Positions 1 through 48,813 of a stretch of DNA of 64,000 bases are shown here, piece by piece; position 1 is the stretch's first letter; every line of letters starts with the position of its first letter. The translations under genes and the position numbers were made by a program. The notes under the pieces were generated by a model. The model was not told the DNA's origin. It saw nothing but the letters and a program-made list of their open reading frames with translations, and did no database searches. The stretch comes from Azolla caroliniana (Eukaryota; Plantae; Polypodiophyta), in the NCBI GenBank assembly GCA_043228905.1, contig JBHGNT010000016.1, positions 17,298,001 to 17,362,000 of the forward strand, given 5' to 3'.

Positions 1-1830
1 TTCATTGATAATTAGTGTGGGGGTATGGCAAGTATATCTAAGTTTAAAGATACTGGGTGAGGTGGTTTTTTTAGTTTTTTCTTTGAAGAGGAGAGTGTGT
101 CTAAGGGAGTAAGGGTGTTTTCTAAAGTTCTTTAGAATATAATGCTTGGGATAACCTCGGGCCCTAACTCTCGTAAAGAATGTCTTTGCATATTTAAGTA
201 ACCTAGGGATGTGCTTTCTCTAACCATATATCTTTTTAATTCATTCAAAACGAAACTATTTTTAACATGGAGAGGGTGATTGGAAGAATAAGGGATGTAT
301 TGATATGTATTAAGTGTTTTTTGAAAGCAATTAAAAGTGAATCTATTATTATCTAGTTTAAAAAGGGTAGTTTCGTGTAAGAAGTATGTATGGTTAGTTT
401 GATAGAGTTTTGCGTAGTGTTACTATAGAAGTTTAGGTATTCGAACAGTTGGGGTTTAGTACCAGTCCAGATGCCAAAGGCATCATCAATATACCTAGTG
501 AAATAGAAAAGGTGGGGTGATGGATTGGAATTTTCTAGATATGAGAGGAAGAGACATACGTAAACAACGGAAAAATTACTGCCCATGGCTGTTCCTTTTA
601 CCTGTTGATAATTTGGTTGTTGAAATTTAGGAAGTGGTATTCTAAAGTGAGGGTGCTAAGGGTATAAATCAAATTACTTTTTTGGTTCGAAAAGTGGGGG
701 GAAATAAGATTTTATAGGATTGAGAGTCTTAGTTTTGGTGGGATGCTAGGGTAGAGGAGTTCAACATCAAAAGAAAAAATGAAGCTATTGGGTGGTGTTA
801 TAAGTTGTTTGAAGGTTTGGACAAGAGAATGGGAGTCCCTAAGATATTGTTTTTGACATAGAAGTATAGGGAGGAGTTGATGGTGAAGCTATTTAGACGT
901 TTGTTCAAATAATGAACCATTATATGAGCAAATTGGTCTATAGCTAACGAGGGTTTTATGTACTTTTGGTAGGAAGTACATATTAGGCACTGAGGAACCT
1001 TTAGGAGGTTTGTGTAGGATAAATTGTATTTCTACGAGAGACAAGATATTAAGGTTACGGTTGACTATGTCATGTAGTCGACTTAAAAGTTCTTCTAATG
1101 GGAGACTATTAACTTTTTCATATGTAGTGATGTCAGATAAATGTTCTAGGCCTTTATCTAGGTATGTTTTTTTATCAAGGACACAAACTCCGATGTTTTT
1201 TTCCGCTGGTAGGATGATTATTTGTTTGTTTTTTCTAAGGCTGGTTAGTGCTATTTGAAGGTGTAGTGGTATTTTGGTATTAGGTAGTATATTATTATGG
1301 AGGTTTGTGGAGAGAGAGATATTGTGTTTATGGAGTATAGACTCTAATGGTGGATACTTAGTAGGAGGGTTCCAATTCGGGTTGGGTAGTTTGAAGGGAT
1401 TAGAGGGGAGGGAGTTGAAGTCTTTAAAGAAATGTTTAAGCCTCAAGGATCTACTAAGGTTTTGGTATTCTTGAAGAATGGATTGGTTAGTTGGTGGGGG
1501 GCAGGGGGGTATAAACTTAAGTCCTAGGTTTAAAAGTTTGATTTCTAATTTACTAAGGGCATAATTTGAAAGATTATGAATTTTTCTTTTTAAGATGGGA
1601 GTCGTGTTTATGGTCGGAGTAAGTGGTTTCCAAAACTTGTATCTAAACCTTTTAGTGCGTGATTTAGTGTAAGGGGAGAAGGGGTAATGGGAGTTTTTTC
1701 TACCTAGCTACATGTACGTATCACACGTTAAAGGGGACCTATCTAGTATGTCAAAGAGACGTTTACACGGGTGTAAGGCGTGCTTAAACCGTTTACTAAT
1801 TCGTTTAGCACGCCTCGTTACACGTTTTTT
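1..1830 (-). pseudogene. PLE reverse transcriptase (frameshifts and premature stops)
   Basis: Manual translation gives, in order: basic KKRVTRRAKR; IHNLSNYALSKLEIKLLNLGLKFIP; IIILPAEKNIGVCVLDK (ADK-type motif); MYFLPKVHK..RPI; FSFDVELLYPSIP; QQVKGTAMGSNFS; RYIDD; LPFL; thumb QKTLNTYQYIPYSSNHP..ELKRY..RARGYP. These match Penelope-like RTs. No GIY-YIG domain is seen within the window. Confidence 0.9.
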
Positions 1831-2078
1831 GGTTTAGACGTATAAGTTGGAGTTTTAGTTATGGGGTGACAGGGGGGTTTATATGAGTTGTGTGAGTTTG
1901 ATTTATTATATGGGTGGGTGGCAGGGGCGGATAGGTTTAAATTAGGAAAAAGAGGAGGGGTATTAGATGTAAATAGGGAGGGGTTCTTATTCATATTATG
2001 TGAAAATAAGGGGGTGGTGGCATGTGTGGAATTATTAAGAATGGAGAGGGGGTTATGGGAGGACTATGTGAAAATATT

Positions 2079-2103
2079 GGGGGGGGGGGGGGGGGGGGGG
2101 GGG
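2079..2103 (+). repeat. Poly-G tract (~25 nt; poly-Pro in the PLE upstream frame, probable frameshift site)
   Basis: Homopolymer seen directly. Confidence 0.9.
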
Positions 2104-3120
2104 TGAGGTTGGGGCTATATTAGAGATTGGGGGAGGGGTAAGACCAGAATTATACAAATTGTTGGGGGGAAATTTAGGGTGAGGATCATTACAAAAAGGG
2201 GGCATGGGGTTAAATAGGGGAATATTGGAAAGTAACGAGGGGGTATACAAAGAATTAGTAGAAAGTGTGGGGGGAGGGTTTTGAGAGTGAATGGGGTATG
2301 GGTGTGGTGGCCATGAATAAGGAAAGGGTGTTGGGATCTTGGTGTGGAAAAGGGATGGGCTATGCTGTTGCCCCAATGTACGAGGAGGGAAAGAAAATTG
2401 AGGGGGAAAGGAGGGATGAGAGGTCTCGAGGGGCTTCGTATACAGAGGAGGGCTGAGGAGCAGAGGAGGAAGGTGAGAATGGGGGAGATGGACTTTGTTG
2501 TAATCGAATGCATGACCAGAGGCCAGAACATTGTTGTAGCCCACATGTGCGTTAATCCCATCGTACTGTTGCTGGTTGTGTTGGGCCGACGAGAATCTAG
2601 GAGGTGCGGTCGATGAGTGGAGGCTATGGATCAGAGACGGGGGTGCTCCGTGTGCGGCATGTGGCCAAGGATGCGTATAGTGGTTAATGTCTTTGTTGCC
2701 GCCAAAAAGTGATGATGGTGGTGGTTGATGGAGATCTTGGGGTGGATGATTATAGTGGTTGATGTCTTTGTTGCTGCTGAAAAGTGATGATGGTGATCGT
2801 TGATGGAGATCTTGTGGTGGATGATGCGAAGGACATGTACGAAGGGAAGCATGTGTGGTAAAGTTGGAGTTCGGGTTATGGTGAGGGTAGGCCGAGTTTG
2901 TGTTCGGGCCTACCCAAATCTCGTTGGATCTATAGAAAAGTAATTTTGGGTTTCGATGGTTGAGGTTGTGAGGATACGGGTTCATGCTAACTTCATTATT
3001 ATTTATGTTGCAGATGAATTGAGGATGGTTGCGGTGGTTGGATGATGCACGGTGAATTTGTGGTGGAGGAGGCTTCAAGTTAGGGTTTGTGTTAGTGTTA
3101 GTTTTTAGGTTGTGAATTGT

Positions 3121-3222
3121 TTTAGAGTTAGGGTTAGGATTAGGGTTACGGTTGGGGTTTGTTCTCAAGTTAGGGTTAGGGTTTGTTCTCAAGTTAGGGT
3201 TAGGGTTTGTTCTCAAGTTAGG
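3121..3222 (+). repeat. 24-bp tandem repeat x3 (GTTAGGGTTAGGGTTTGTTCTCAA) plus TTAGGG-like hexamers, encoding NPNLRTNP/NP repeats
   Basis: Seen directly in the sequence and in the 2053..3396 translation. Confidence 0.85.
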
Positions 3223-3643
3223 ATTATTGTGCTGAGATGTATACTGAAATTTGTTATATTGTACTTTCTCAAAACTATCGACAACTTTTTCAATATCATC
3301 ATCTAACTCCATATCTATGTCTATCTCTCTAATATGGTGCTTGTGTGTGTTCTGAGTGTTGTCATTTATTGATTGGGCTTTATCTTTTCTTTGCATAGCA
3401 GTAGCCCTAAAGGCTTCCCTATAAGTGAATGAGAGAGCTATAGTATTACATTCTTTTAGAATATTAATCGCTAACTCTTCTTGGAAAATTTCAAGTTATT
3501 TGCTAAATGAGTTTGGGCTTGATTCGAGTTCCTCTACTTCGTCAAAACAAACATGGGCTTTTAGGAGATTAGCAATCTTGAGTATATTAGATCGCACAGT
3601 TATAGGAAAGTTACCTACTCTTTTTGTGTAGTAATGGACAAGA

Positions 3644-6600
3644 TGTTAGAAAACAGGTCCCTCCGGATGGGAAGTGAGAAGAACAGTGCTGAAGAACAGG
3701 AAACCGGATGAGGAGTACCCGGCTACGGATGACCCGGTGAGAACCGGATGATGAGTGCCCGGCAAGCGCCGGATGATGCAGGCCCGATGAAGAGTGATCA
3801 CCGGATGAAGGGACATATTTGTAAATATGTTTCTGAGAGTCCATCGGGGCTATATTTGTAAATAGCCGAAAAGTCATATTAGTATAAATATGACTTAGGG
3901 CAAACAGAGAATACAGTGTTGTTGTCATTCTTGTTGGTGCAAGACTTGAGAGCGTGTAATAGTGTATAGAGAGAGAGAGAGCGAGGAAGAGGTCGCTGCC
4001 TCTATTGTAACCGCCGCTTGAGGCGAAGATCGTGAGCACGAGGTCGTTGCCTCCGTGAGCTCGCTATTGTACATTCTGATATAGTGATAGTTTGTAGTCT
4101 GTGGGCTGCCGTGGTTTTTCCCTAGTTTGGGTTTTCCACGCTAACATCTTGTGTACTCCTCTCTCCATTGTGTCGTGCTTTCATTTCCCGTTTTCTGTGT
4201 ATGATTCTAAGCTCGGTTGTGGCTGAGCGTTGCGCATAGGGAGCATGCAGTTCCTGTCAAAGTGGAATCAGAGCGAAACGACACAGAAAATGGACGATTC
4301 GTTGGGTGGCATGTTCAAGCTCACCGGCTCCAACTATTCGGTGTGGAAGTCGAAGATGAGGGACATGCTCGTGGTTAAAGATCTTTGGTTGCCGGTTCAG
4401 TTCGGGCACAAGAGACCGGACAAAATCGACGCCACGATATGGGAGGTGATGCACATGAAGACAACGATGTACATACGGTGCTTCATCGACATGAGCCTAT
4501 ACAACAACTTCAATGAAGAGAGCAAGGCTCATGAGCTCTGGGAGAAGATCGACATTATGTTTCAAAACAAAAATGTTGTTAATCAAGTTTCGGTATTCCG
4601 GAAGCTAGTAAGACTCCGGTACCAAGATGGCTCCAGCATGGCGGAGCACATGAATGCCTTCCAGGGGCTGATCCACCAGGAAACATCATTGGAAGTACCT
4701 CTCGCCGATAAGGTACTAGCGCTACTCCTGCTCGGTTCCCTCCCGGATAGCTGGGAGACATTGGTTGTCAGTTTGGGCAACGCCGGGCCGGAAGGGAAAC
4801 AATTATCCCTAGCAAGAGTGAAGTCGAGCTTGCTAGATGAGGAGGCACGTCGGAAAGATAAGGATATGAGCTCCGACTCCAAAGCGCTCCTTACCGAATC
4901 GGAACGCGGAAGACATAGAAACCGTAGTCCCCAGAACTGGGAAAAGTCGGGGACACGATCAAAGTCAAGGGGGAGGCCTACTTGCTTCTATTGTGGCAAG
5001 GCGGGACACTTCCAAAAGAATTGTCGGCATTTCCATAAAGACAAGGAAACCGACGGTACCAATTCGAAGTGGACACCGGACCGGAACGGTAAAGACCGGA
5101 GGGGAACGGACCGGAAGGGAACGACGGCAATCGCGGCAAGTGAAGAAGAGTTGATGCTCATCACCGAGGAAAGTGAGTTAAACCTTGCCGGCGACGAGAT
5201 GACCTGGGTGGTCGACTCCGGAGCGTCGTTCCACCTTACCCCGGACCAGAAATCCTTCTCATCCTACTCAGTCATTGATCATGGCTGTGTCCGGATGGGG
5301 AATGAACGTACATGCCGAATTGTCGGCATAGGAGACGTGTGGCTGTCAACACCAACCAAATGCAAGATGCTGGTGAAGGATGTCTGACACGTTTCGGAGG
5401 TTCGTCTGAACCTGATATCAGCCGGTCGGCTAGATGATGAAGGCTACACGGGTAGCATCCGGAACGGTGTTATGAAGTTCAGCAAAGGGAGCCTGATTGT
5501 GGCTTAGGCCCGGAAGGTAAACACACTGTACTTGATGAATGCCCGATTATGTCTGGAGGAAGTGAACGTGGCATCCGACACTCCCGGTGAGTTGTGGCAC
5601 AAAAGGTTGTGTCACATGAGCGAGAAGGGGATGAAGAGGCTTGCAAACGACAACCTCATTCCAGTGAAGAACGTGCACTTGGAGAAGTGCACTGATTGTC
5701 TGGCCGGAAAGCAAAACTAGACCTCCTTCCGATCGAGGCCACCGATGAGACGTAATGCACCACTGGAGTTGGTGCATACTGATGTGTGTCAAGTGGACAC
5801 GAAGTCACATGCAAGATCGCAGTACTTCATGACGTTCTTAGATGACCATAGACGGAAGCTGTGGGCCACACCATTGAAGACGAAGGAACAAGTGCTATCC
5901 GTCTTCAAAGAGCTCCACGCGAGAGTGGAAAGAGAAACCGGTCGGAAGCTGAAGGCGGTTCGAGCAGATAACGGAGGTGAATACCGGGGGCAGTTCGAGG
6001 AGTACTGTCGCTGGAAGGGAATCCGGCTCGAATTTACCGTGCCAAAGACGCCGGAACTAAACGGGCTGGCCGAGAGGATGAACCGGACCATAATGGAGAG
6101 GGTCCGGAGTATGCTAGTGCATGCAAAACTACCCAAGGTGTTTTGGGCTAAGGCGCTGTCCACAACGACGTATGTGATAAACAGATCACCCTCAGTACCC
6201 TTGGACGGAGACACGCCACAAAGAGTCTGGACTGGTAAGGAAGTGTCCTACCGGCATCTGAAAGTATTCGGGTGTCTTGCGTATGTGCATGTAGCTAAGG
6301 ACCGGAGAGGAAAACTAGATTCGAAGACCTAGCCATGCATATTCCTTGGTTATGGTGACGATGAGTTCGGCTACCGAGTGTGGGACCTGGTCGACAAGAA
6401 GGTATTCCGGAGTCGAGATATTATCTTCATGGAGGACAAGACACTCGCCGACTGGGAGTTGGAGAAGAAGATAATGAACTCCGAGTCGATCGGTAAGGAT
6501 CGATTCTACGATGAGCAAACCCAACCGGCAAGAGACCGGTTAGCACTCGAGGAACTAGACGGTTACGGTGAGGATACCGAACTGGTAGAAGAAGAAGTAG

Positions 6601-8732
6601 AGGAAGTTGGAACCGGAACCGGCCAAGACCCCGAATCGGATTCGGATGAATATCAAATGGAGGAGCCAGTTACTGAAGCCCAAAGACGGAGATATCCTCT
6701 CAGAGAGAGAAGGCCCCCCCGAAGATTTCCGGACTCAGAGCATGTGCTGCTGACCGATGAGGGAGAGCCAGAAAGCTTCGAAGAAGCGAAGGATGACACC
6801 CACAGCCGAAAATGGTTAAGTGCCATGCAGGATGAGATGGATTCCCTACATGAGAACCATATGTACAAATTGATGGAGTTGCCGAAAGGAAAGCGGGCAC
6901 TCCAAAACAAGTGGGTGTACAAGTTGAAACCGGGAGATGCCGACAACCCCCTGAGATACAAAGCCAGGATCATGGTGAAGGGATTCCAACAGAAGAAGGG
7001 CGTGGACTTCGACGAGATATTTGCCCCGGTAGTAAAGATGACCTCCATCCAGACGGTGTTGAGTATAGTGGCAAGCATGGACCTCGAGGTAGAGCAACTA
7101 GATGTGAAGACGGCATTTCGTCACGGTGACCTCGAAGAGGAGATCTACATGCAGCAACCAGAAGGATTCACGGAGAAAGGGAAGGAGCACCTGGTTTGCC
7201 GGTTGAAGAAGAGCCTCTACGGACTGAAGCAGGCTCCCCGACAATGGTACCGAAAGTTCGACTCCTTCATGACCGATCAAGGGTACCACAAAACGCAGGC
7301 CGATCATTGCGTGTTTGTGAAGAAGTTCGAAGGAGGCGACTTCCTGATACTCCTTCTGTACGTGGTCGACATGTTGATCGTTGGACGGGACCAAGCCAAA
7401 ATACGGATGCTGAAGAAGGCTCTCAACCGGACCTTCTCAATGAAAGTCTTGGGTCCGGCAAGACAGATGTTGGGGATGCATATTATCCGGAACCGGTCAG
7501 TGAAGCATTTGTGGCTATCACAGGAGAAGTACGTGACAAAGGTGCTTCACCGGTTCAACATGTCAGATGCGAAACCGGTCAGATCGACACTCTTGGCAAA
7601 CTGCAGATTATCCGGTAGGCAAAGCCCGAAGACGAAAATAGATAAGGCAGATATGATGAAGGTTCCATATGCCTCTCCCGTCGGGGGCTTAATGTACGCA
7701 GTGGTTTGTACCCGACCGGATATAGGATACCCAGTCGGAGTGGTGAGCCGGTTTATGAGCAATCCCGGTAGGGAGCACTGGAACGCGGTCAAATGGATAC
7801 TCCGTTACTTAAAGGGCACTTCGAACATGTGTCTCCGATTCGGCTCCGGTAAACGTCAACTTGACGGTTTTACCGACTTGGACATGTCAGCTGATGTGGA
7901 TACGAGCTGGTCTACATCTAGGTACGTAATGACATATGCAGGGGGAGATGTTTCGTGGCAGTCGAGACTGCAGAAGACGGTTGCGTTGTCAACCACGGAG
8001 GCGGAGTACATGGCGGCTGTGGAAGCCGGCAAGGAAATATTATGGATGAAGGACTTCATCGGAGAGCTCGGTATCCGGCAAGATGAATACCCGCTCTATT
8101 GCTATAGTCAAAGTGCCATCCACCTTGCTAAGAATGCGGCCTACCATTCCCGGACGAAGCATATCCAACGTAGGTATCACTGGATCCGAGAAAGAGTAGA
8201 TGACCAGGAGTTCGCACTGACGAAGATCCACACGGCCGAGAACGGGTCAGATATGCTCACCAAAGTACTGACACCTGACAAGCTGGATGCATGTCGAAAG
8301 CGGGTCGGACTAGTAAGACATCCCATGCCGGAGTGAAGGGGGAGTTTGTTAGGAAACAAGTCCCTTTGGATGCGAAGTGAGAAGAACAGTGCTGAAGAAC
8401 AGGAAACCGGATGAGGAGTACGCGGCTACGGATGACCCGGTGAGAACCGGATGATGAAGACCCGGTGAGAACCGGATGAGGAGTACCCGACTACGGATGA
8501 TCCGATGAGAACCGGATGATGAGTGCCCGGCAAGCGCCGGATGATGCAGGCCCGGTGAAGAGTGATCACCAGATGAAGGGACATATTTGTAAATATGTTT
8601 CTGAGAGTCCATCGGGGCTATATTTGTAAATAGCCGAAAAGTCATATTAGTATAAATATGACTTAGGGCAAACAGAGAATACAGTGTTGTTGTCATTCTT
8701 GTTGGTGCAAGACTTGAGAGCGTGTAATAGTG

Positions 8733-8766
<34 letters not shown>

Positions 8767-9037
8767 GAGGTCGTTGCCTCTATTGTAACCGCCGCTTGAG
8801 GCGAAGATTGTGAGCACGAGGTCGTTGCCTCCGTGAGCTCACTATTGTACATTCTGATATAGTGATAGTTTGCAGTCTGTGGGCTGCCGTGGTTTTTCCC
8901 TAGTTTGGGTTTTCCACGCTAACATCCTGTGTACTCCTCTCTGCATTGTGTCGTGCTTTCATTTCCCGTTTTCTGTGTATGATTCTAAGTTCGGTTGTGG
9001 CTGAGCGTTGCGCATAGGGAGCGTGCAGTTCCTGTCA
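3644..9037 (+). mobile_element. Full-length Ty1/copia LTR retrotransposon (Tnt1/Tork-like), degenerate; family A copy 1
   Basis: LTRs at 3644-4259 and 8347-9037 (TG..CA); TSD CAAGA at 3639-3643 and 9038-9042; PBS TGGAATCAGAGC (tRNA-iMet type, one mismatch) at 4263; PPT GAAGGGGGAG before 8347; gag-CCHC-PR-IN-RT-RH order. Confidence 0.97.
4289..8336 (+). pseudogene. Copia gag-pol polyprotein with in-frame stops (~5385, 5505, 5718, 6330)
   Basis: Motifs CFYCGKAGHFQKNC, WVVDSGAS, LWHKRLCH, VHTDVC..ADNGGEY..NGLAERMNRT, YVVD (YVDD variant) and TEAEY..SDMLTK. Confidence 0.95.
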
Positions 9038-9678
9038 CAAGACTATCTAAATGCTTAACATATGTGCTAGTGAGGTCTTTACTATATTGTGTTGTGATGG
9101 AAGTAAACCCTAGTTGTAGGCTTTTATTAATATCTTCCTACTCAATAATTAGTCTAGAGGGGTAGATTCTCAAGCTATGAGGGGCTATATTTTGAGAATT
9201 TAGGTTTGACATACGAGTGTATGTCTATTTAGCTTTTTCTGCTTTTCGATAGAGGTTTTTAAACTCTTCGATTATCCTACACTTATAATCTTCAAAGTGT
9301 TGGGAAATTAGCGGTGATTCATTGGAGATTACTTGGGTACTAGTAGTTTTTGGAGGGGTTGGAGTAGTTGAAACTATTATAGCTTGTGGTCTTTTAGTTG
9401 GATGTTTGTTGGCGCTTCTAGGTTTCATAGGAGTGGGTGTGGTGGAATTAGCCGCTGCAAAAGTCATCATCTGTTGTGGAGGGAACTCAGCATTGAATGG
9501 TGATTCGATGTGAGTCGAAGTATCACTATTATGGGTTCCAAACTCCGATGATAAGCCCTCCATAGAAAATACGATCTAGCCTTTTTTGTTATTAACCGGT
9601 CGGTTGTAGCAAGGAGTGCGGGCGACTTTGTGATATGGTAGATAATGTCATAGGAAAAGAAGATATTCTGAGCATAGA

Positions 9679-9681
<3 letters not shown>

Positions 9682-9717
<36 letters not shown>
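9682..9717 (+). repeat. (GA)n microsatellite, i.e. (CT)n in the PLE leader between ribozyme and ATG
   Basis: Seen directly. Confidence 0.9.
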
Positions 9718-9720
<3 letters not shown>

Positions 9721-9741
9721 TTTGATTAAAATTAAAGGAAA

Positions 9742-9796
9742 GACCTTATGTAGCAAACTAGTTTCGCTCGCTTAGAGCTCATCAGTGCAAAAGGTC
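9742..9796 (-). ncRNA. Minimal type I hammerhead ribozyme
   Basis: Minus-strand RNA reads GACCUU-UU-GCA-CUGAUGA-GCUC-UAAGC-GAGC-GAAA-C-UA-G-U-U|UGC-UACAU-AAGGUC. It has an intact catalytic core, a 4-bp stem II, a stem I of 3+6 bp with an internal loop, and a palindromic stem III region AAACUAGUUU. Confidence 0.9.
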
Positions 9797-11485
9797 ATGT
9801 AAATACAAAAGGTGGTTTATATAGGATGTTGAGAATGGTAAAGGGAGGGGAAAGAGGGAGTGGGGTGTAATAAGAGTGTAAATAGATGGAGGGCTGTAAG
9901 GATTTAAGGTGGAAGATCTTGATGATAGAGGGGGTGGTGATAAAGGGGAAAATGAGTTGGTGATAGGAAGATTGATAGGGTGATAAGACATATGAGTGAG
10001 TGATATAGGGTGATAAGGGGAAATGAATGAGTGATAGGGTATGTAATTATAAGTACGTAAACATAAGATGGTGAGAAAGTGAAAAGAAAAGAAGGGAATA
10101 AGAAGGGAAAGGAAGGAAAAGAAAAAGGAAGTTAGTAAGAGGTGGTGGGGAGAAGGTTTGAGGGAAAAGAGGGAGTAGAAAAAGGTAGTGAGAGGTATAG
10201 GGGAGGGGGAAGGGAGAAAAAAGGGAGAGAGAGAGAGAGAGAGAGAAAAGGAATGAGTGAGATATAAAATAGTAGTAAGGGGGAGGGGGCTGATGACAGT
10301 GACGTACGTGATTAATAGATCACCCTTCGCACCCTTGGAAGGAGACACACCACAGAGAGTATGGACCAGTAAAGACGTGTCTTACCGGCATCTGAAGGTG
10401 TTCGGGTGGCTCACTTATGTGCATGTTGCAAAGGACAAGAGAGAAAACTTGGATCCAAAGTCCAGGCCATGCATATTCCTCGGATATGGCGATGATGAGT
10501 TTGGCTACCGTGTGTGGGACTTGGTCGACAAGAAGGTCTTCAGGAGTCGAGACATAGTCTTCGTTGAAGACAAGACTATTGCCGACCGGGAGTCAAAGAG
10601 GAAGATAGTGCAGTCCGGGCCGACAAACAAAGATTAGTTGAAGGACACAAGGACTTACCCGGTCGGAAACCGGATGTTAACTGGTAACTGGATGACACTC
10701 CACGAACCGGACGGATTCAGACAAGAAACCAAACCGACCAAAGAAGAAGAAGAAGAAGAAGAAGAAGACACCGAAAACGGACAAGATCCTGAATCATATT
10801 CGGATGAAGAACAAACGGAGGAACTGGTAATTGAAGAACAAGGATGGAGATACCCTCTCAAAGAGAGAAGAGCTCCCGAGAGATTTCCGGATGCAGAGCA
10901 CGTATTGATGAACGATGAGGGGGAGCCAGAAAACTTCGAAGAAGCAAAGAAAGACACCCACAACGGCAAGTGGTTGAGTGCCATGTAGGACTAGATGGAT
11001 TCCCTTCATGAGAACCACAGATACAAACTAACAGAGTTGCCAAAAGGAAAGAGGACACTTCAGAACAAGTTGTCGCGACCCAATCTTCGAAGACAAGGTC
11101 GATTTGGAAGAAAAGAAGATAATAACAAACGAGAAGACGTTTACAAGACAAAAATACAAGAATTTCTATTACCGGAAACCGAGATTACAAGGTTGCTGAA
11201 GACTGGTGTTGAACCGGAATGGTTCAACACTAAGCAGATCTTCGACTTATATATTGTACATCAGAATGTGCATGATCGCCATTTGGCATACATGCTGTGC
11301 GCCACTTGGTGTACAGGGTGCATGCCATTTGGCGGTCATTTAATGTGTCTAGTACTTTAGAGTTCTTGAATAATAATAATATGAAAATGCATTCATTAAT
11401 GAAAATGAGTTGGTGCAATGGCTGAAGTGTAAGACCATTGTTTGAAGGTCACAAGTTCGAACCTTGATATTCACATTTTGTGACA

Positions 11486-14400
11486 GCATCCCCTCCTTTG
11501 ACGACGAGTTCCATGAGTCGCAATGCATGAACTAGGTTTTGGTTTATGGGGATAACGAAGATGAAACTCTTGTATAAGTTCACAGGCATTAGTGACGTTC
11601 GTTGCAAGTTCCCATGTCTGATCCGCAGGCGTGTATCCCAGCCAATCTACTAGATAATATAACTTATTGCGGATGACCTTAGAGTCCAAAATAGCTTCTA
11701 CTTCATATTCATGTCCTTCAGCAAGTTGAACCGGAGGTGGTGGTGGGATAACCCGATTTGGAATAGAACTTGATGTCCATGGTTCTAATAATGAAACATG
11801 AAATATTGGATGAAAACGCATATGTGAAGGTAGGTCCAGACGAAATGCAACATTGTTGACTTGATGAGAGATTACAAATGGACCTAGACGTTGGAAATCC
11901 AATTTGGCACTTGGTCGAGTAGTTTTCACATTGCGACGCAATAAGCAGACACGATCACCAACTTTAAACTTAGGGTCTTCAAGTGAAGAATCTAAGCGAT
12001 GTTTATCCGCCACCTTCTTGTACTTGGCGTGAGCATGAAGCAAATTGTGAGAAAGGTTGGTTTGAATTTCTTTGAGTTTTTCTAGACGATCTTTGACCGT
12101 GGGATTTTTTGAGACTTTTGGACATTCGAGCATCATTCATCGAGGATGATATCCTGTGTTTGCAAAGAACGGAGTGAGTCCCGTAGAAGAATGGATGTAA
12201 GCAAATTCTGCCATATGTAAGAAATCCATCCAATCATCTTGTTGATAGTTGATAAAGCAACGGAGATATTGTTCTAATGTTTGATTTGTGCGTTCCGTTT
12301 GCCCATCGGTTTGAGGATGGTAGCTTGAAGATAGTTTACAAGAAATTCCAAGGCTCTCAAGTAAGTGTGTCCAAAACTTTGCAATAAATTGTGGTCCACA
12401 ATCACTAATGATTTCATCTGGAAGGCCATGGTGCTTGAAAACTTCTCGCATAACAAGACTTGTCAATTCTTGACTAGTAAAAGTTTTTCTAAATGGAAGA
12501 AAATATGCCATTTTCGTAAAGCGATCCACCACTGTAAGAATTGCATCATAGCCTTGGGAAGATGGGAGATCTGTGATGAAATCGATAGAAATGGATTTCC
12601 ACGGACCATCTGGAATGGGCAATGGGTGCAACAAACCATATGGCCGATGTCGAGGCATCTTTGATCGACAACATACATCACAAGTAGAAACATAGTCTAT
12701 GACAAATTGACGAACCTGAGGCCACCAATAGTTTCGGGTAATTAGCTCTAATGTTTTCAAAACTCCGAAATGTCCAGCTAACGGTGAATCATGGCAGTGA
12801 TGCAAGACTTAAAGTCCAAAAGGTCCATCGGGAATATAAGTACGGTTGTTTCGAAAAAGCAATCCATCATGCCAACTGAAGTTCCCATAATCCATGCGAG
12901 AAGACTTGGAGCATGAACAAGAAGCACAATCTGGAACAATGTGGTCTAAAATATCTTGTGCAAAATCATCTGAACCAATGCTCGAGCGAATAGAATCAAG
13001 AAATTTTGAATCCAAAGTTATCTCAACAACATTTGTCACCATTAATCGTAGACGACTAGGGCTCAAAAGGACTTGTTCTTGATTGTCGTAAGTTGGGTCC
13101 CCCGGTTTTGGTGCAAAATAAGAGCTTCTTGATAAGGCGTCAACTTTACCTTGTGTTCCTGGTCGATATGTTATCACAAAATACAACCCTGTTAGAAATT
13201 GTGCCCACCGAGCTTGCCGTCGATTTAGAACTCGAGCATTTTGAAAGTATGTGAGGTTTTTATGATCGTTGTAAACAATAATTTGGTGGGGAGAACCTTC
13301 CAAGAAGTGACGCCATTGTTCAAAAGAATCAACAATTGCCAACAATTCTTTGTCATGGATTTCATAATTGATTTCTGTAGGTTCAAACTTTCTTGAAAGA
13401 AATGCAACTGGATGTAATTTCTCATCATCCGCTACTTGCGATAGAACACTTCCTAGTGCAAAATCAGATGCATCCGCTTCTATGATAAACGGCTTTTTAA
13501 GGTCAACGTGGACCAAAATGGGAGCAGATGTAAATGCTTGCTTCAAGCTATCAAATGCATCAGCTGCGCTTGATGTCCATACAAATGGTCGGTTCTTCTG
13601 TGTTAGTTCCGTGAGGGGCAAAACAACTTTTGAGTAACTCTTGATGAATTTGCGGTAGAAATTCGCAAATCCCAAGAAACATTGTAGATCACGAACTGAG
13701 CCTGGTGTCTTCCAATCTAGAATTGTTTGTACTTTCTTTGGATCCATAAAAATACCTTCTGGAGAGACCATATACCCTAGAAACTCGGCTTGATTGCGGT
13801 CAAAGCAACACTTCTCTAGTTTGGCATAAAGACCAAATTCCCGTAATCGTTGTAGAACTTGTCGGACATGATTATTATGCTCCTCTTGTGTCTTTGAGTA
13901 GATTAGTATGTCATCCAAGTAAATTATCATGAAGATATTGAGGAAATCTCGAAAGATATCATCTGCCATATGTTGGAAAACTGATGGAGCATTTGTAAGC
14001 CCGAATGGCATTACTGTGTACTCAAAGTGACCATATCGTGTGCGAAAAGCAATTTTCCATTCATCACCAGGTCGAGTACGAACAAGGTTGTAAGCTCCTT
14101 GTAAGTCTAGCCTTGTGAAGTATTTGGCCCCATTGAGACGTTCCAAGAGATTTGGAATCAATGGTAGAGCATATCGATTTCGAATCATAACCTTGTTCAA
14201 GCCTCGATAGTCTACGACCAAACGTAAAGAGCCATCTTTCTTCTTAACAAAAAAAATAGGAGTGCCAGCAGGAGTTCAGGAATGTCGAATAAAGCCATTT
14301 GCAAGATTCTCATCAATATATTCTCGAAGAACTTTCAATTCTGACGGCGAAAGGTTATAAATTGGTCCCCATGGTGGTTCCTTCTCAGCATGCAAATCAA

Positions 14401-43700: not shown

Positions 43701-45810
43701 ATAGACCATTTTACACACTTACAACTCTGCCTGGAAAGTTGCCGCAGCACACGCTTAAGCTTGAATCCCGCGAAATGTGCTTTCGGCGTGACCAGCGGGA
43801 CTCTCTTAGGCCATATAGTCAGCAAGGAGGGAATAACAGTTGATCCGAACAAGATCTCCGCGATTACACAAGCCAAAACTCCGACAAACGCCAAATCGCT
43901 CAGCCGGTTTTTAGGACAAATACGGTGGCATAGTCGGATGATGCGGTATATGGCGAACTTCGCCACGCCGTTACATGTTGTCGTACATCGGACTCCTTTC
44001 CAATGGACTGCAACGGAGGATAAGGCCTATGAGGCACTTAAGATAATGCTCACACAGGCCCCCGTCGTACAACCACCAGTTTGGGCGAAGCCATTCCACG
44101 TGTTCGTCGATGCCTCAGACATAGCAATAGGAAGTGCACTAATGCAGCTCACTGAACCAAACTGGTACCGGCCAGTATACTACGCTAGTCGCATATTATT
44201 AACTGCAGAGCGTAACTATTCCACAACGGAGCGGGAGGCGCTAGGGATGATCTATAGCATCAATAAATTCCGGCATTATTTACTAGGAAGGAAATTCACG
44301 TTCCACGTGGATCATTCGGCGCTGCTGTATTTGGTGGATGCTGCTGCTCCAAGAATTTGATTTCGTAATCCAGCACTGACCAGGGATGCAACACGCAGTG
44401 GCAAATTTTTTGAGCAGACTCGAGAATGGAGAAACAATACAGAAATATGACGACGATTTTCCGGATGCCGACATCCTGCGGGTAGCAGCACTAGCAGAAA
44501 GAATGGAATCGACCTTTCCGGACCGGTGGCTTATGGAAATGACGTACTTTTTGACTACGGGTCTGCCTCCACCACAATTATGCACAGACTAGAAGAAACA
44601 ACTAGCCGTCTGAAGCCGTCACTTCTGCCTCGTCGAGGGCATTTTATATCACAAAGGAAGTGACGGCATTTGGCGACGTGGGGTACGTCAGGATGAGAAG
44701 GAAGCAGTTTTACGGGAGGCACACTGCGGCACGGTAGGCGGCCATTACGCGGGCGATGTTATAGCCCGGAAAGTATGGCATGCGGGCTTATGGTGGCCAA
44801 CAACGCAGAAGGACGCAACCGAGTATTGTAGAAAGTGTGATTTGTGTCAACGGATGGGCCAACCCGCGGAGGGCGCAAGGATGCCACACTAGCCCGTATT
44901 ACCGCTAGACCCCTTCCAAAAGTGGGAATTGGATTTTGTGGGCCCCTTCACACTGACGGCAGCTCGTACGGGCAATAAATACATATTGGTAGCCACGGAT
45001 TATTGCACCAAGTGGGTAGAAGCAAGGGCACTACGTGAAAATACGGCAGCCATCACAACTAGATTCCTTTACGAGCAAATCTGGTACCTGTTTGGCTGTT
45101 TGATTGACCTTATTAGTGACCAAGGGAGTCACTTTCTCAATATGGTGGTTCGGGAACTAACACATCATTACGCCGTAGTCCATAAGAAGAGTACGCCATA
45201 TTATCCGTAGGCGAATGGGTTAGCAGAATACAACAACAAGACGTTGCAGACCATTTTGAAGAAAATCTTCAATGAAAATAGAACGGACTGGGATACCAAA
45301 TTACAGAGTGCGTTATGGGCGTACAGAACCAGCTACAAAACAAGCATATAGTCAACACCGTTTCGATTAGCATTTGGGCTAGAGGTTCTGATGCTGGTCG
45401 AATTTCAGGTACCCAGTTTGCGAATTCAGGTACGGAACCGACTATCAAGAGCCAAGTCGGAGGAGGTACGGCTCCACCAACTCCTCGAACTCGGGGAAAA
45501 ACGCGTACACAACATGGCTATGTTGGAGCAGGAACAACGACCGCGTAAAGCATTTGTGGATCCACATCGGAACGCAAGGGAAAAGGAGTTCGCCGTGGGT
45601 CGAGCGATGCTGGTTTTCCAAACTCGCATGGGCCATATGCTAGGGAAATTACAATTCCGCTCGATCAGGCCATACTGGATAATTGGAGCGGAACAAGGCA
45701 CGTTCCAACTAGGTACGCTGGCCGGGGAAGTAGTACGGCAAAAGGTGAATGGGTTTCGGCTCAAACCTTACCTAGGCCCTACATCACCTAACCCATTCAC
45801 CGCCGAATAG
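40701..45810 (+). pseudogene. Athila-like gag-pol
   Basis: Fragmented ORFs from 40789..41115 to 45391..45810 carrying the motifs listed for the element. Confidence 0.9.
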
Positions 45811-47616
45811 GACAGAGCCGGAGAACCTACAGTGTAAATGGACGGCCCCACTTGTACCATAATGTAAAAATAGGTTGTAGATAACCGTTACTGGATAATT
45901 GGAGCGGAACAAGGCACGTTCCAACTAGGTACGCTGGCCGGGAAAGTAGTACGGCAAAATGTGAATGGGTTTCGGCTCAAACCTTACCTAGGCCCTACAT
46001 CACCTAACCCATTCACCGCCGAATAGGACAAAGCCGGAGAACCTACAGTGTAAATGGACGGCCCCACTTGTACCATAATGTAAAAATAGGTTGTAGATAA
46101 CCGTTACTGGATAATTGGAGCGGAACAAGGCACGTTCCAACTAGGTACGCTGGCCGGGGAAGTAATACGGCAAAAGGTGAATGGGTTTCGGCTCAAACCT
46201 TACCTAGGCCCTACATCACCTAACCCATTCACCGCCGAATAGGACAGAGCCAGAGAACCTACAGTGTAAATGGACGGCCCCACTTGTACCATAATGTAAA
46301 AATAGGTTGTAGATAACCGTTACTGGATAATTGGAGCGGAACAAGGCACGTTCCAACTAGGTACGCTGGCCGGGGAAGTAGTACGGCAAAAGGTGAATGG
46401 GTTTCGGCTCAAACCTTACCTAGGCCCTACATCACCTAACCCATTCACCGCCGAATAGGACAGAGCCGGAGAACCTACAGTGTAAATGGACGGCCCCACT
46501 TGTACCATAATGTAAAAATAGGTTGTAGATAACCGTTACTGGATAATTGGAGCGGAACAAGGCACGTTCCAACTAGGTACGCTGGCCGGGGAAGTAGTAC
46601 GGCAAAAGGTGAATGGGTTTCGGCTCAAACCTTACCTAGGCCCTACATCACCTAACCCATTCACCGCCGAATAGGACAGAGCCGGAGAACCTACAGTGTA
46701 AATGGACGGCCCCACTTGTACCATAATGTAAAAATAGGTTGTAGATAACCGTTACTGGATAATTGGAGCGGAACAAGGCACGTTCCAACTAGGTACGCTG
46801 GCCGGGGAAGTAGTACGGCAAAAGGTGAATGGGTTTCGGCTCAAACCTTACCTAGGCCCTACATCACCTAACCCATTCACCGCCGAATAGGACAGAGCCG
46901 GAGAACCTACAGTGTAAATGGACGGCCCCACTTGTACCATAATGTAAAAATAGGTTGTAGATAACCGTTACTGGATAATTGGAGCGGAACAAGGCACGTT
47001 CCAACTAGGTACGCTGGCCGGGGAAGTAGTACGGCAAAAGGTGAATGGGTTTCGGTTCAAACCTTACCTAGGCCCTACATCACCTAACCCATTCACCACC
47101 GAATAGGACAGAGCCGGAGAACCTACAGTGTAAATGGACGGCCCCACTTGTACCATAATGTAAAAATAGGTTGTAGATAACCGTTACTGGATAATTGGAG
47201 CGGAACAAGGCACGTTCCAACTAGGTACGCTGGCCGGGGAAGTAGTACGGCAAAAGGTGAATGGGTTTCGGCTCAAACCTTACCTAGGCCCTACATCACC
47301 TAACCCATTCACCGCCGAATAGGACAGAGCCGGAGAACCTACAGTGTAAATGGACGGCCCCACTTGTACCATAATGTAAAAATAGGTTGTAGATAACCGT
47401 TACTATATAATTGGAGCGGAACAAGGCACGTTCCAACTAGGTACGCTGGCCGGGGAAGTAGTACGGCAAAAGGTGAATGGGTTTCGGCTCAAACCTTACC
47501 TAGGCCCTACATCACCTAAACCATTCACCGCCGAATAGGACAGAGCCGGAGAACCTACAGTGTAAATGGACGGCCCCACTTGTACCATAATGTAAAAATA
47601 GGTTGTAGATAACCGT
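45673..47616 (+). repeat. Tandem array, 9 x 216 bp, covering the integrase C-terminus and start of the 3' region
   Basis: Unit TACTGGATAATTGGAGCGG...TAGATAACCGT starts at 45673, 45889, 46105, 46321, 46537, 46753, 46969, 47185 and 47401, with only a few substitutions per unit. Confidence 0.97.
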
Positions 47617-48813
47617 TACGAAAGAAAAAAAGAAAAAAAAGAGAAGATAGTGACTATTTAAACGACTAAAGGCATGCACAAACTCATAGTTCAAGAACAC
47701 ACGACACTACGATGGCTCACCACCCAATGAACCCTAAGCCACAAAAGGAAGGAAACAGAAACCCATCTTCTAGCTATCAACATTCTCATCGCTCCTCCCC
47801 CTCACCTTCTCCTCCATCCTATCACAGAGCTTCAGCCCACCGCAACCACCGGTCTCCTTCCCACGAACCCCTCGGCGATGCCAATCTTCATATCTACTGC
47901 CCTACGTCGATGGCTCGTGGAGAAACGCCTGGATGGGTACATCCGGGTCGCAGAAGCACCCCCACACCCGGATGCCATGGACATCGCCAGGAAGCTTAAA
48001 ATCAACACGGTCCCAACTCCTCCATCCGGAAGAAGTTGGACTTGTCATCGCTAGGCGAAAGGCATTTCGAAATACCTCTTGAAGAGGCGTTGCAGCGATA
48101 TTTCGGACCATATTCCTCCTCCGCCAAGGCCTATAGAACGAAGCAGATTCCATATCCCTTCTTCCATGAAGTTGCCAAGTTCCTGCTAGAAGTCAGCTGC
48201 GTACATGTCAAGGCATATAGGATGCCCAAGCAGAAGGCGGGCATCATTATCGATACCTTTGAAGGGCGTGCAGTCGATTGGGGGCTCATCATAGGGCTTG
48301 CGTTAAGGGAAGGCTTGCATGCATATCAGGCAAGCAAAAGCCTCAGGCCGATCATACAATAGTACCTTACGGTACTATTCCCACCCCGAGGCCTGTCGGC
48401 ACCGCAACCCAGCCGACCCAAGCCCCCGCCCCGATTCGCGAAGCGCAGGTTTGCGGAGTTAGCGGCCCTAGAGTGGGAAGAGGAACCCCAACTCGTCCAC
48501 CCAGACCCGAGCACAACACCTACCGACCAGCCGGACACACGGGCAATGCAGGAGGAACAACTGGCACGTTTCGTGGAAGCAGCCCTAGAGCCAGACACCG
48601 AAACACAGCAGGATAGCCCCAGACCGAAACGGCGTAGATTGGACAAGAAAGATGGGCGGGGGTTGGTCAAAGATGTCCCCACGGCGACAAAGACACCGAC
48701 CGAAGGCGATGGCTCCGTAGCTATGGAACCCAATACCACCTTCTAAATCATCGGGGAGCCACGGCCGATCATTACGACCCAGTCCCAACGAGGGAAAGCC
48801 GTATTGACGGCAG

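What the first reader, a model, noticed from the sequence alone, without database searches (positions are those of the whole stretch)
1..10289. Large ribozyme-bearing Penelope-like element with a long extra N-terminal frame in a plant-type genome
Seen: removing the nested copia gives a >4.9-kb minus-strand unit made of a pyrimidine-rich leader, hammerhead, (CT)n, ATG at 9563, a ~700-codon helical then N/P/H-rich frame, a basic patch and a PLE RT. Known: PLEs are patchily distributed in land plants (conifer Dryads, Selaginella Athena-type and Chlamys elements), and hammerheads and upstream coiled-coil ORFs occur in some PLE clades. Inference: no GIY-YIG precedes the RT, so this is not the permuted Chlamys/Naiad layout. 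The combination may define an undescribed plant PLE family.
Basis: partly seen in the sequence, partly recalled or inferred. Interest (0 to 1): 0.85.

Follow-up and report, generated by a model that had tools for sequence, protein, structure and literature searches.

The report
Endonuclease-free plant Penelope leaving telomeres
This is a broken copy of a telomerase-like jumping gene that has no DNA-cutting enzyme, from a plant group already known in spikemoss and conifers; it likely makes its copying enzyme by a ribosomal frameshift, and most of its families have lost the telomere repeats this group is thought to need, so they likely insert at breaks inside chromosomes.

Summary
A copia (3644-9037, 5-bp target duplication) interrupts a minus-strand Penelope-like element, and the copia-free join occurs in 3 of 4 sequencing runs laid. 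The reading needs correcting. The element is endonuclease-free: intact relatives end after the RT thumb, and no GIY-YIG appears in 52 related loci. Its RT falls (100/100) with Selaginella, Picea, Ginkgo and Cryptomeria proteins, i.e. the described plant EN-minus (Coprina-group) lineage. The 'long N-terminal frame' is a separate ~780-codon ORF1 that stops three codons after A-AAA-AAC, kept in 40 of 42 junctions across eight families and followed by a hairpin: a likely -1 programmed frameshift into RT. The hammerhead is real, covaries and looks dimer-type. The upstream pyrimidine 'leader' is a leftover 3' UTR. Less expected: 20 of 25 leaders lack telomeric repeats, 5 of 6 element ends clustered just past a conserved motif join non-telomeric DNA, and this copy lies internally. 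The copy is dead. Two unreviewed notes on other DNA of this genome reached a similar assignment. Three key papers could not be read.

The parts
9800..10289 (-). Pyrimidine-rich 3' UTR remnant of a preceding, 5'-truncated unit (upstream pLTR); its 5' end is fused to a copia fragment at about 10289/10290
   Evidence: 72-78% identity to 3' UTRs of L001, L002, L018, L035, L038; junction alignment
9817..9823 (-). TATA-like box 38 nt before the ribozyme core; likely promoter
   Evidence: TATA-like hexamer at 36-39 nt in 33 of 33 hammerhead matches; function inferred
9742..9796 (-). Type I hammerhead motif, palindromic helix III, GUU triplet, predicted cut between 9756 and 9755
   Evidence: cleavage untested
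9682..9717 (-). (CT)18 microsatellite in the leader; no CCCTAAA repeats in this leader
9610..9620 (-). Conserved CGCACTCCTT motif, 53-58 nt before the ORF1 ATG; 3' ends of related copies cluster 29-48 nt past its start
9043..9563 (-). ORF1, first part (ATG 9563; start of helical domain); two premature stops
3644..9037 (+). Nested Ty1/copia retrotransposon with 5-bp target duplication; not part of the element
1818..3643 (-). ORF1, second part: end of helical domain, Asn-Pro repeat, Pro/His-rich low-complexity region, ends KPKNV-stop; one premature stop and one frameshift near the C25 run (2079-2103)
1824..1830 (-). Slippery heptamer A AAA AAC in the ORF1 frame
   Evidence: 40 of 42 junctions
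1775..1816 (-). Hairpin 7-8 nt after the heptamer; likely frameshift stimulator
1..1830 (-). RT frame (-1 to ORF1): basic patch, DKN-type motif (here EKN), RT core YIDD, thumb; three stops and three frameshifts; cut by the window edge about 47 codons before the end seen in relatives

Best explanation
This is a decayed, copia-interrupted copy of an endonuclease-free Penelope-like retroelement of the land-plant (Selaginella/conifer, Coprina-group) lineage, whose intact relatives likely translate ORF1 and, by an occasional -1 ribosomal frameshift, an ORF1-RT fusion, and likely copy their RNA onto existing DNA ends: telomeres in one family, internal breaks in most. Shown: unit order TATA - hammerhead - (CT)n - conserved motif - ORF1 - slippery site and hairpin - RT - pyrimidine 3' UTR - hammerhead, in head-to-tail arrays; no endonuclease; tree position; telomere joins in one family and non-telomeric joins in others. 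Inferred: transcription from the TATA box; self-cleavage as a dimer of two tandem ribozymes; ORF1 in excess as a coiled-coil RNA-packaging protein; RT starting about 30-48 nt past the conserved motif; priming on a free 3'-OH at a break or fork where no telomeric repeat is available; premature stops of copying that give 5'-truncated copies like the one at 10289.
For: EN-free: relatives P0001-6 end 214-222 residues after YxDD (EN+ rows 323-376), and a GIY-YIG profile finds nothing below E 0.2 in six frames of 52 loci plus the window while finding EN+ controls outside its training set. Tree: 23-row clade with Selaginella, Picea, Ginkgo, Cryptomeria at 100/100; the 'Selagine1' reference row in Craig et al.'s supplement shares GTAMGSNFAVVYAC with P0100. 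ORF1 profile hits Cryptomeria proteins LOC131075203/5, whose locus numbers flank RT LOC131075204, and an Adiantum protein. Frameshift: AAAAAAC in 40 of 42 junctions, ORF1 stop 3 codons later in 41 of 42; residues before the first RT Met are conserved with varied codons, so that stretch is read in the RT frame; identical codons at 5 of 12 invariant residues there against 13 of 272 in the rest, Fisher p 3.5e-4, region chosen after seeing it. Ribozyme: distal arms swap GACC/GGTC (18) and GGTC/GACC (14), complementary in 32 of 33; helix III stays palindromic when TA (26) becomes AT (7). Ends: L006 joins CCCTAAA repeats at the motif-proximal end and L008 is 5'-capped by them; L014, L029, L034, L037, L038 end at the same distance in non-telomeric DNA; flanks include a homeobox exon and an L1.
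Against: No RNA or protein data, so frameshifting, cleavage and transcription are untested. Seven of eight families keep a Met 39 codons into the RT frame, which could start RT on its own. The hairpin core hardly varies, so pairs changed on both sides (3) do not exceed shuffles (190 of 500), and part of its conservation is protein-level. The monomer does not fold into a hammerhead (z -1.45) and five copies have ACA instead of GCA in proximal helix I. The related loci are short-read assemblies of repeats, many redundant, and flanks may be chimeric. 4 of 10 3' junctions lie outside the cluster. No empty sites were seen. The tree holds no named fungal Coprina, Athena, Dryad, Chlamys or Naiad sequence and is rooted on one long branch.
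Confidence: 0.7

Rival explanations
1. Same element, but RT is made separately, by re-initiation at the Met of MWLG or by splicing, not by frameshifting.
For: Met at codon 39 of the RT frame in 7 of 8 families; PLEs are known to keep introns (PMC8557442, passages).
Against: In the P0002 family 5 of 6 loci have their first Met at codon 283, inside the RT; the 39 codons before the Met stay open and conserved at protein level; no invariant AG acceptor before the slippery site; heptamer, spacer and hairpin are placed as in canonical -1 signals (own knowledge).
Confidence: 0.15
2. All insertions happen at chromosome ends; internal copies such as this one were buried later by chromosome fusion, healing or LTR pile-up.
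For: Telomere joins in L006 and L008, and CCCTAAA units in 5 of 25 leaders, including L001 of this element's own RT family and contigs of runs X1 and X3. The Asn-Pro tract is AACCCT in 80 of 119 dipeptides, a telomere-like sequence.
Against: 20 of 25 leaders have no telomeric unit, five motif-proximal 3' ends join ordinary DNA with no telomeric remnant, and the window has no (CCCTAAA)2 in 64 kb.
Confidence: 0.25
3. Internal insertion uses nicks made in trans by another element's endonuclease (an EN+ PLE or an L1).
For: L1 elements with an endonuclease occur in the same hosts (L031); the clade is sister to EN+ rows.
Against: No EN+ relative appeared among the 52 loci, though that scan was seeded on this family's own motifs; the five junctions show no shared target sequence by eye.
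Confidence: 0.15
4. One reading: an undescribed plant PLE clade with one long ORF and possibly a C-terminal endonuclease.
For: The nine-row family group has a long stem (0.56) and no named member; P0010, an unnamed EN-less relative, does have one 1529-residue frame.
Against: Two frames in all eight families; no endonuclease; nests with Selaginella and conifer RTs.
Confidence: 0.05

Closest known systems
EN-minus PLEs of Selaginella moellendorffii (Sm1/Sm2, filed as Coprina) and EN(-)PLEs of Pinus taeda and Picea abies (PMC9033089 table, PMC13159263 and PMC4209133 passages; the original papers of 2007 and 2016 were not held)
   Same: RT clade, DKN motif, no endonuclease, no insertion in fingers, type I hammerhead in the terminal repeat, related ORF1 in Cryptomeria, telomere joins in one family.
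   Different: RT only 37-42% identical to the named plant proteins; eight families; most leaders lack telomeric repeats and join non-telomeric DNA. Whether Sm1/Sm2 have the same frameshift signal I could not check.
Athena / Terminon elements of bdelloid rotifers (PMC8557442 Fig. 1 legend; PMC12477314 and PMC5408684 passages)
   Same: Works like it: coiled-coil ORF1 that can be separated from RT by a frameshift with an RNA structure, hammerhead beside reverse-complement telomeric repeats, tandem chains.
   Different: Different host kingdom; RT groups with plant EN-minus rows (no Athena row was in my tree); unit about 5.5 kb with two frames, no extra enzymes; a hairpin is supported, a pseudoknot is not shown.
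PLE-X (EN-less Chlamys subclade) of Chara and Selaginella (PMC8557442 section 9)
   Same: EN-less, hammerhead-bearing plant PLE with insertions away from telomeres; poses the same open question.
   Different: PLE-X has CxC and an insertion in fingers and targets 28S rDNA in spikemoss; here motif A-to-B spacing is 58, like canonical PLEs.
Poseidon of Anolis (PMC11167929 passages)
   Same: RT starts inside the RNA at fixed sites without homology to the target, giving clustered 3' ends.
   Different: Poseidon has its own GIY-YIG endonuclease in a single ORF.

Membership tests
Penelope-like elements | Telomerase-like PLE RT with DKx motif, RT core and thumb | tested here: met
Penelope-like elements | pLTR from partial tandem arrangement, with hammerhead | tested here: met
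   L001 is head-to-tail
Plant EN-minus PLEs (Coprina group) | No GIY-YIG endonuclease | tested here: met
   the window itself lacks the last ~47 codons
Plant EN-minus PLEs (Coprina group) | RT groups with Selaginella/conifer EN-minus RTs | tested here: met
   100/100; link to the published Selaginella reference by a shared motif only
Plant EN-minus PLEs (Coprina group) | RT groups with fungal Coprina references | not testable with these tools
   no named fungal Coprina protein came up or 40
Plant EN-minus PLEs (Coprina group) | Reverse-complement telomeric repeats near the hammerhead and attachment to chromosome ends | tested here: inconclusive
   met in family P0002 (L006, L008) and partly L001; not met in the window copy or in 20 of 25 leaders
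Athena/Terminon | Coiled-coil ORF1 separated from RT by a frameshift signal | tested here: met
   sequence level only; frameshifting itself untested
Athena/Terminon | RT in the Athena clade | not testable with these tools
   no Athena reference available; nearest rows are plant
Chlamys/Naiad and PLE-X | N-terminal GIY-YIG or CxC motif, insertion in fingers | tested here: not met
   no GIY hit, A-to-B spacing 58; no CxC before the RT in alignment A1
Dryad / Penelope-Poseidon and Neptune (EN+) | C-terminal GIY-YIG in the RT frame | tested here: not met

The most novel reading that the evidence does not exclude
An ancient, vertically inherited vascular-plant lineage of telomerase-like retroelements uses a conserved -1 frameshift to make an ORF1-RT fusion, and several of its families have dropped telomere recognition and spread through chromosome interiors with no endonuclease, starting reverse transcription at a fixed RNA signal on whatever DNA end they meet. 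Telomere-bound and telomere-free sister families coexist, so the switch can be compared directly.
Probability: 0.4. Interest if true: 0.7.

Novelty: new variant of a known kind. Interest (0 to 1): 0.5.

Why it matters
EN-minus PLEs are described as generally restricted to chromosome ends, and how EN-less PLEs reach internal sites is stated as open (PMC8557442, abstract and section 9). Here sister families with and without telomeric repeats, sharing one 3' start zone, make that testable. It also extends a compact frameshift-plus-ribozyme retroelement design, known from rotifer Athena, to land plants, and explains some 'uncharacterized proteins' in conifer and fern annotations as element ORF1 and RT.

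Tried and rejected
No whole genome is held, so no genome-wide copy map and no extension left of position 1. Pfam finds nothing on the window's own broken frames or on ORF1; no solved-structure match by sequence. AlphaFold model of the ORF1 domain is long helices at low confidence (pLDDT 60, pTM 0.25) and Foldseek found no match. The ESM Atlas dynein-tail hits had recognition below threshold and are taken as generic helix likeness. No relatives in viral contigs. No RNA holder listed, which says nothing about expression. Summed contig depths are not copy numbers and were not used. A copia search to place the host gave only 60-65% matches to angiosperm elements, so the host lineage is not established by me. 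A pseudoknot after the slippery site looked possible by eye in one family only and is not claimed. (CT)n targeting as a replacement for telomere targeting was considered: only 2 of 10 3' junctions lie in (CT)n, so not supported. The Ginkgo model's N-terminus matches the ORF1 profile only at E 0.12. [quoted passage not shown] 2017 and Lin et al. 2016 were not held and may cover these points, as may their supplements.
Full report
Observation. The copia runs 3644-9037 with CAAGA duplicated on both sides; its LTRs differ at 17 of 615 aligned bases. Without it, one minus-strand frame runs from ATG 9563 through a helical region into Asn-Pro and Pro/His-rich sequence. Contigs of 3 of the 4 runs laid carry the joint 3637->9037, so the segments are linked in other copies. 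The copy is dead: ORF1 has three premature stops and a frameshift near a C25 run; the RT has three stops and three frameshifts.

No endonuclease. Six intact relatives at 57-86% identity are 620-636 residues long with RT and thumb only. A scan of metagenome contigs gave 52 loci; 43 of 52 fall at 80% identity or more into eight RT families, 9 are more distant. A GIY-YIG profile built from 21 EN+ session proteins finds nothing better than E 0.2 in six frames of the 52 loci and the window, yet finds EN+ proteins it was not built from. Motif A-to-B spacing is 58, so there is no insertion in fingers.

Placement. In a tree of 53 of the 118 RT rows first used plus the window RT, the window groups with P0001 (100/100), within a nine-row family group (100/100), within a 23-row clade holding Selaginella XP_024523476, Picea glauca KUM45112, Ginkgo Gb_11119 and Cryptomeria proteins (100/100), within a 35-row clade none of whose rows hit the GIY profile (100/100), sister to EN+ rows (100/96). 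The root is one long branch, and no named Coprina, Athena, Dryad, Chlamys or Naiad row was available. The tie to the published group is the 'Selagine1' row in Craig et al.'s supplement, which shares GTAMGSNFAVVYAC with the Selaginella protein, and passages that list Sm1/Sm2 as Coprina and EN(-)PLEs in Selaginella, pine and spruce. The ORF1 helical-domain profile hit 30 proteins at E 0.001 or better; of 10 looked up, one cluster holds Cryptomeria LOC131075203 and LOC131075205, numbered on either side of RT LOC131075204, and one is an Adiantum protein. The host is a land plant with TTTAGGG telomere repeats in related loci; an earlier unreviewed note calls it a fern, which I could not confirm.

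Two frames and a likely frameshift. Intact ORF1s are 722-870 residues and end xKNx-stop. Of 43 pattern matches, one (L038:3328) has no RT behind it and was dropped; of the other 42 junctions, 40 have A AAA AAC in the ORF1 frame, the two exceptions being in damaged copies, and 41 stop three codons later. A -1 slip there enters the RT frame, open for about 650-666 codons in intact loci. A hairpin follows after 7-8 nt (z -2.19). In 17 distinct sequences 83.7% of cells pair against 21-45% for slid controls, but two-sided changes (3 pairs) do not beat shuffles (190 of 500), because the core is nearly invariant. Among residues invariant in all eight families, the codon is also identical at 5 of 12 in the first 22 codons and 13 of 272 further on (p 3.5e-4, region picked after the fact). 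Against: 7 of 8 families keep a Met at codon 39; for: the stretch before it is conserved as protein, and 5 of 6 loci of the eighth family have no Met until codon 283. A frameshift between ORF1 and RT is drawn for animal EN-minus PLEs in Craig et al. Fig. 1 (legend read).

Ribozyme and leader. Thirty-three hammerhead cores were found in the loci and window, many redundant; 28 have an intact CTGATGA, 32 have complementary distal arms in two swapped forms (18 and 14), all have a palindromic helix III (TA 26, AT 7; the pattern fixed its outer bases) and a TATA-like hexamer 36-39 nt upstream. A short palindromic helix III is the dimer-forming type, and Selaginella PLEs carry type I hammerheads (PMC4209133 passages). 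Rfam support for the window motif alone is weak and the monomer does not fold as a hammerhead. The 10289-9800 stretch matches relatives' 3' UTRs, and L001 is a head-to-tail tandem, so the window holds a truncated pLTR followed by a full unit.

Where copies sit. A CGCACTCCTT motif lies 53-58 nt before the ORF1 ATG wherever a leader and ATG were both held. I picked out by eye 10 loci where a downstream leader gives way to other DNA (seven printed). Six end 29-48 nt past the motif start: L006 joins CCCTAAA repeats, while L014, L029, L034, L037 and L038 join ordinary DNA. Four end elsewhere: L032 inside ORF1, L011 and L035 in (CT)n, L036 just after the ribozyme. Telomere tracts of four or more units occur in 2 of 52 loci, both in family P0002; CCCTAAA units occur in 5 of 25 leaders measured (L001, L003-L006). 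The window leader has none, its 5' end is fused to a copia fragment, and that side faces 54 kb rich in LTR elements with no (CCCTAAA)2. Since telomere-attached copies point their 5' end to the tip (as in L008), this copy is internal. Caveat: the loci are short-read assemblies of repeats and flanks may be chimeric; no empty site was seen.

Mechanism. Likely: transcription from the TATA box through tandem units; dimer self-cleavage; abundant ORF1 and rare ORF1-RT fusion; RT starts near the conserved motif, as Poseidon RT starts internally without target homology (PMC11167929 passages); the primer is a telomere in family P0002 and a break or fork end in the repeat-less families. All of these steps are inferred. 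Rivals are Met39 or spliced RT (0.15), burial of former chromosome ends (0.25) and nicking in trans (0.15).

Verdict. A member of the known plant EN-minus lineage, working like Athena in its two-frame layout, with one unusual trait: loss of telomeric repeats with internal insertion in most families. Papers seen: PMC8557442 (abstract, passages, section 9, supplement hits); PMC4209133, PMC11167929, PMC9033089, PMC12477314, PMC13159263, PMC5408684, PMC10088271, PMC7046594 (passages). The 2007, 2016 and 2017 primary papers were not held and could already report the frameshift or internal copies, so the novelty rating is provisional.

Noticed in passing
L013:4599, L019:10526, L035:2556: Three different PLE families are joined at their (CT)n or CT-rich tract, through a T run, to the same unrelated sequence; it may be the poly(A) end of a retroposon that targets (GA)n. 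Absent from the window.
   Followed up: partly
window 3122-3226; ORF1 of seven loci: The Asn-Pro repeat of ORF1 is encoded by AACCCT in 80 of 119 dipeptides (about 20 expected from codon use elsewhere in ORF1), the reverse complement of TTAGGG; slippage could explain it.
   Followed up: partly
L018:4411-6855 and L025:3853 onward: Tandem arrays mix families: a unit of one family is followed by the ORF1 or RT of another, suggesting template switching or chimeric assembly.
   Followed up: no
window 11471-14275 (-): Ty3/gypsy element with RT, RNase H, integrase and chromodomain; resembles Tcn1-type elements of non-seed plants from recall, not tested.
   Followed up: partly
window 45673-47619: Nine 216-bp tandem copies at 99% identity, apparently from a retrotransposon integrase tail.
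   Followed up: no
L028:5506 and 5763: Two hammerheads 257 nt apart with no ORF between, a short pLTR tandem that could form the dimer or a non-autonomous unit.
   Followed up: no
P0266 (KUM45112.1): A member of this RT clade is annotated as a Picea glauca 'MTgene'; either a mitochondrial insertion or nuclear contamination of that assembly.
   Followed up: no
L030:6356-7057: A homeodomain exon lies about 700 bp after an element's 3' side.
   Followed up: no
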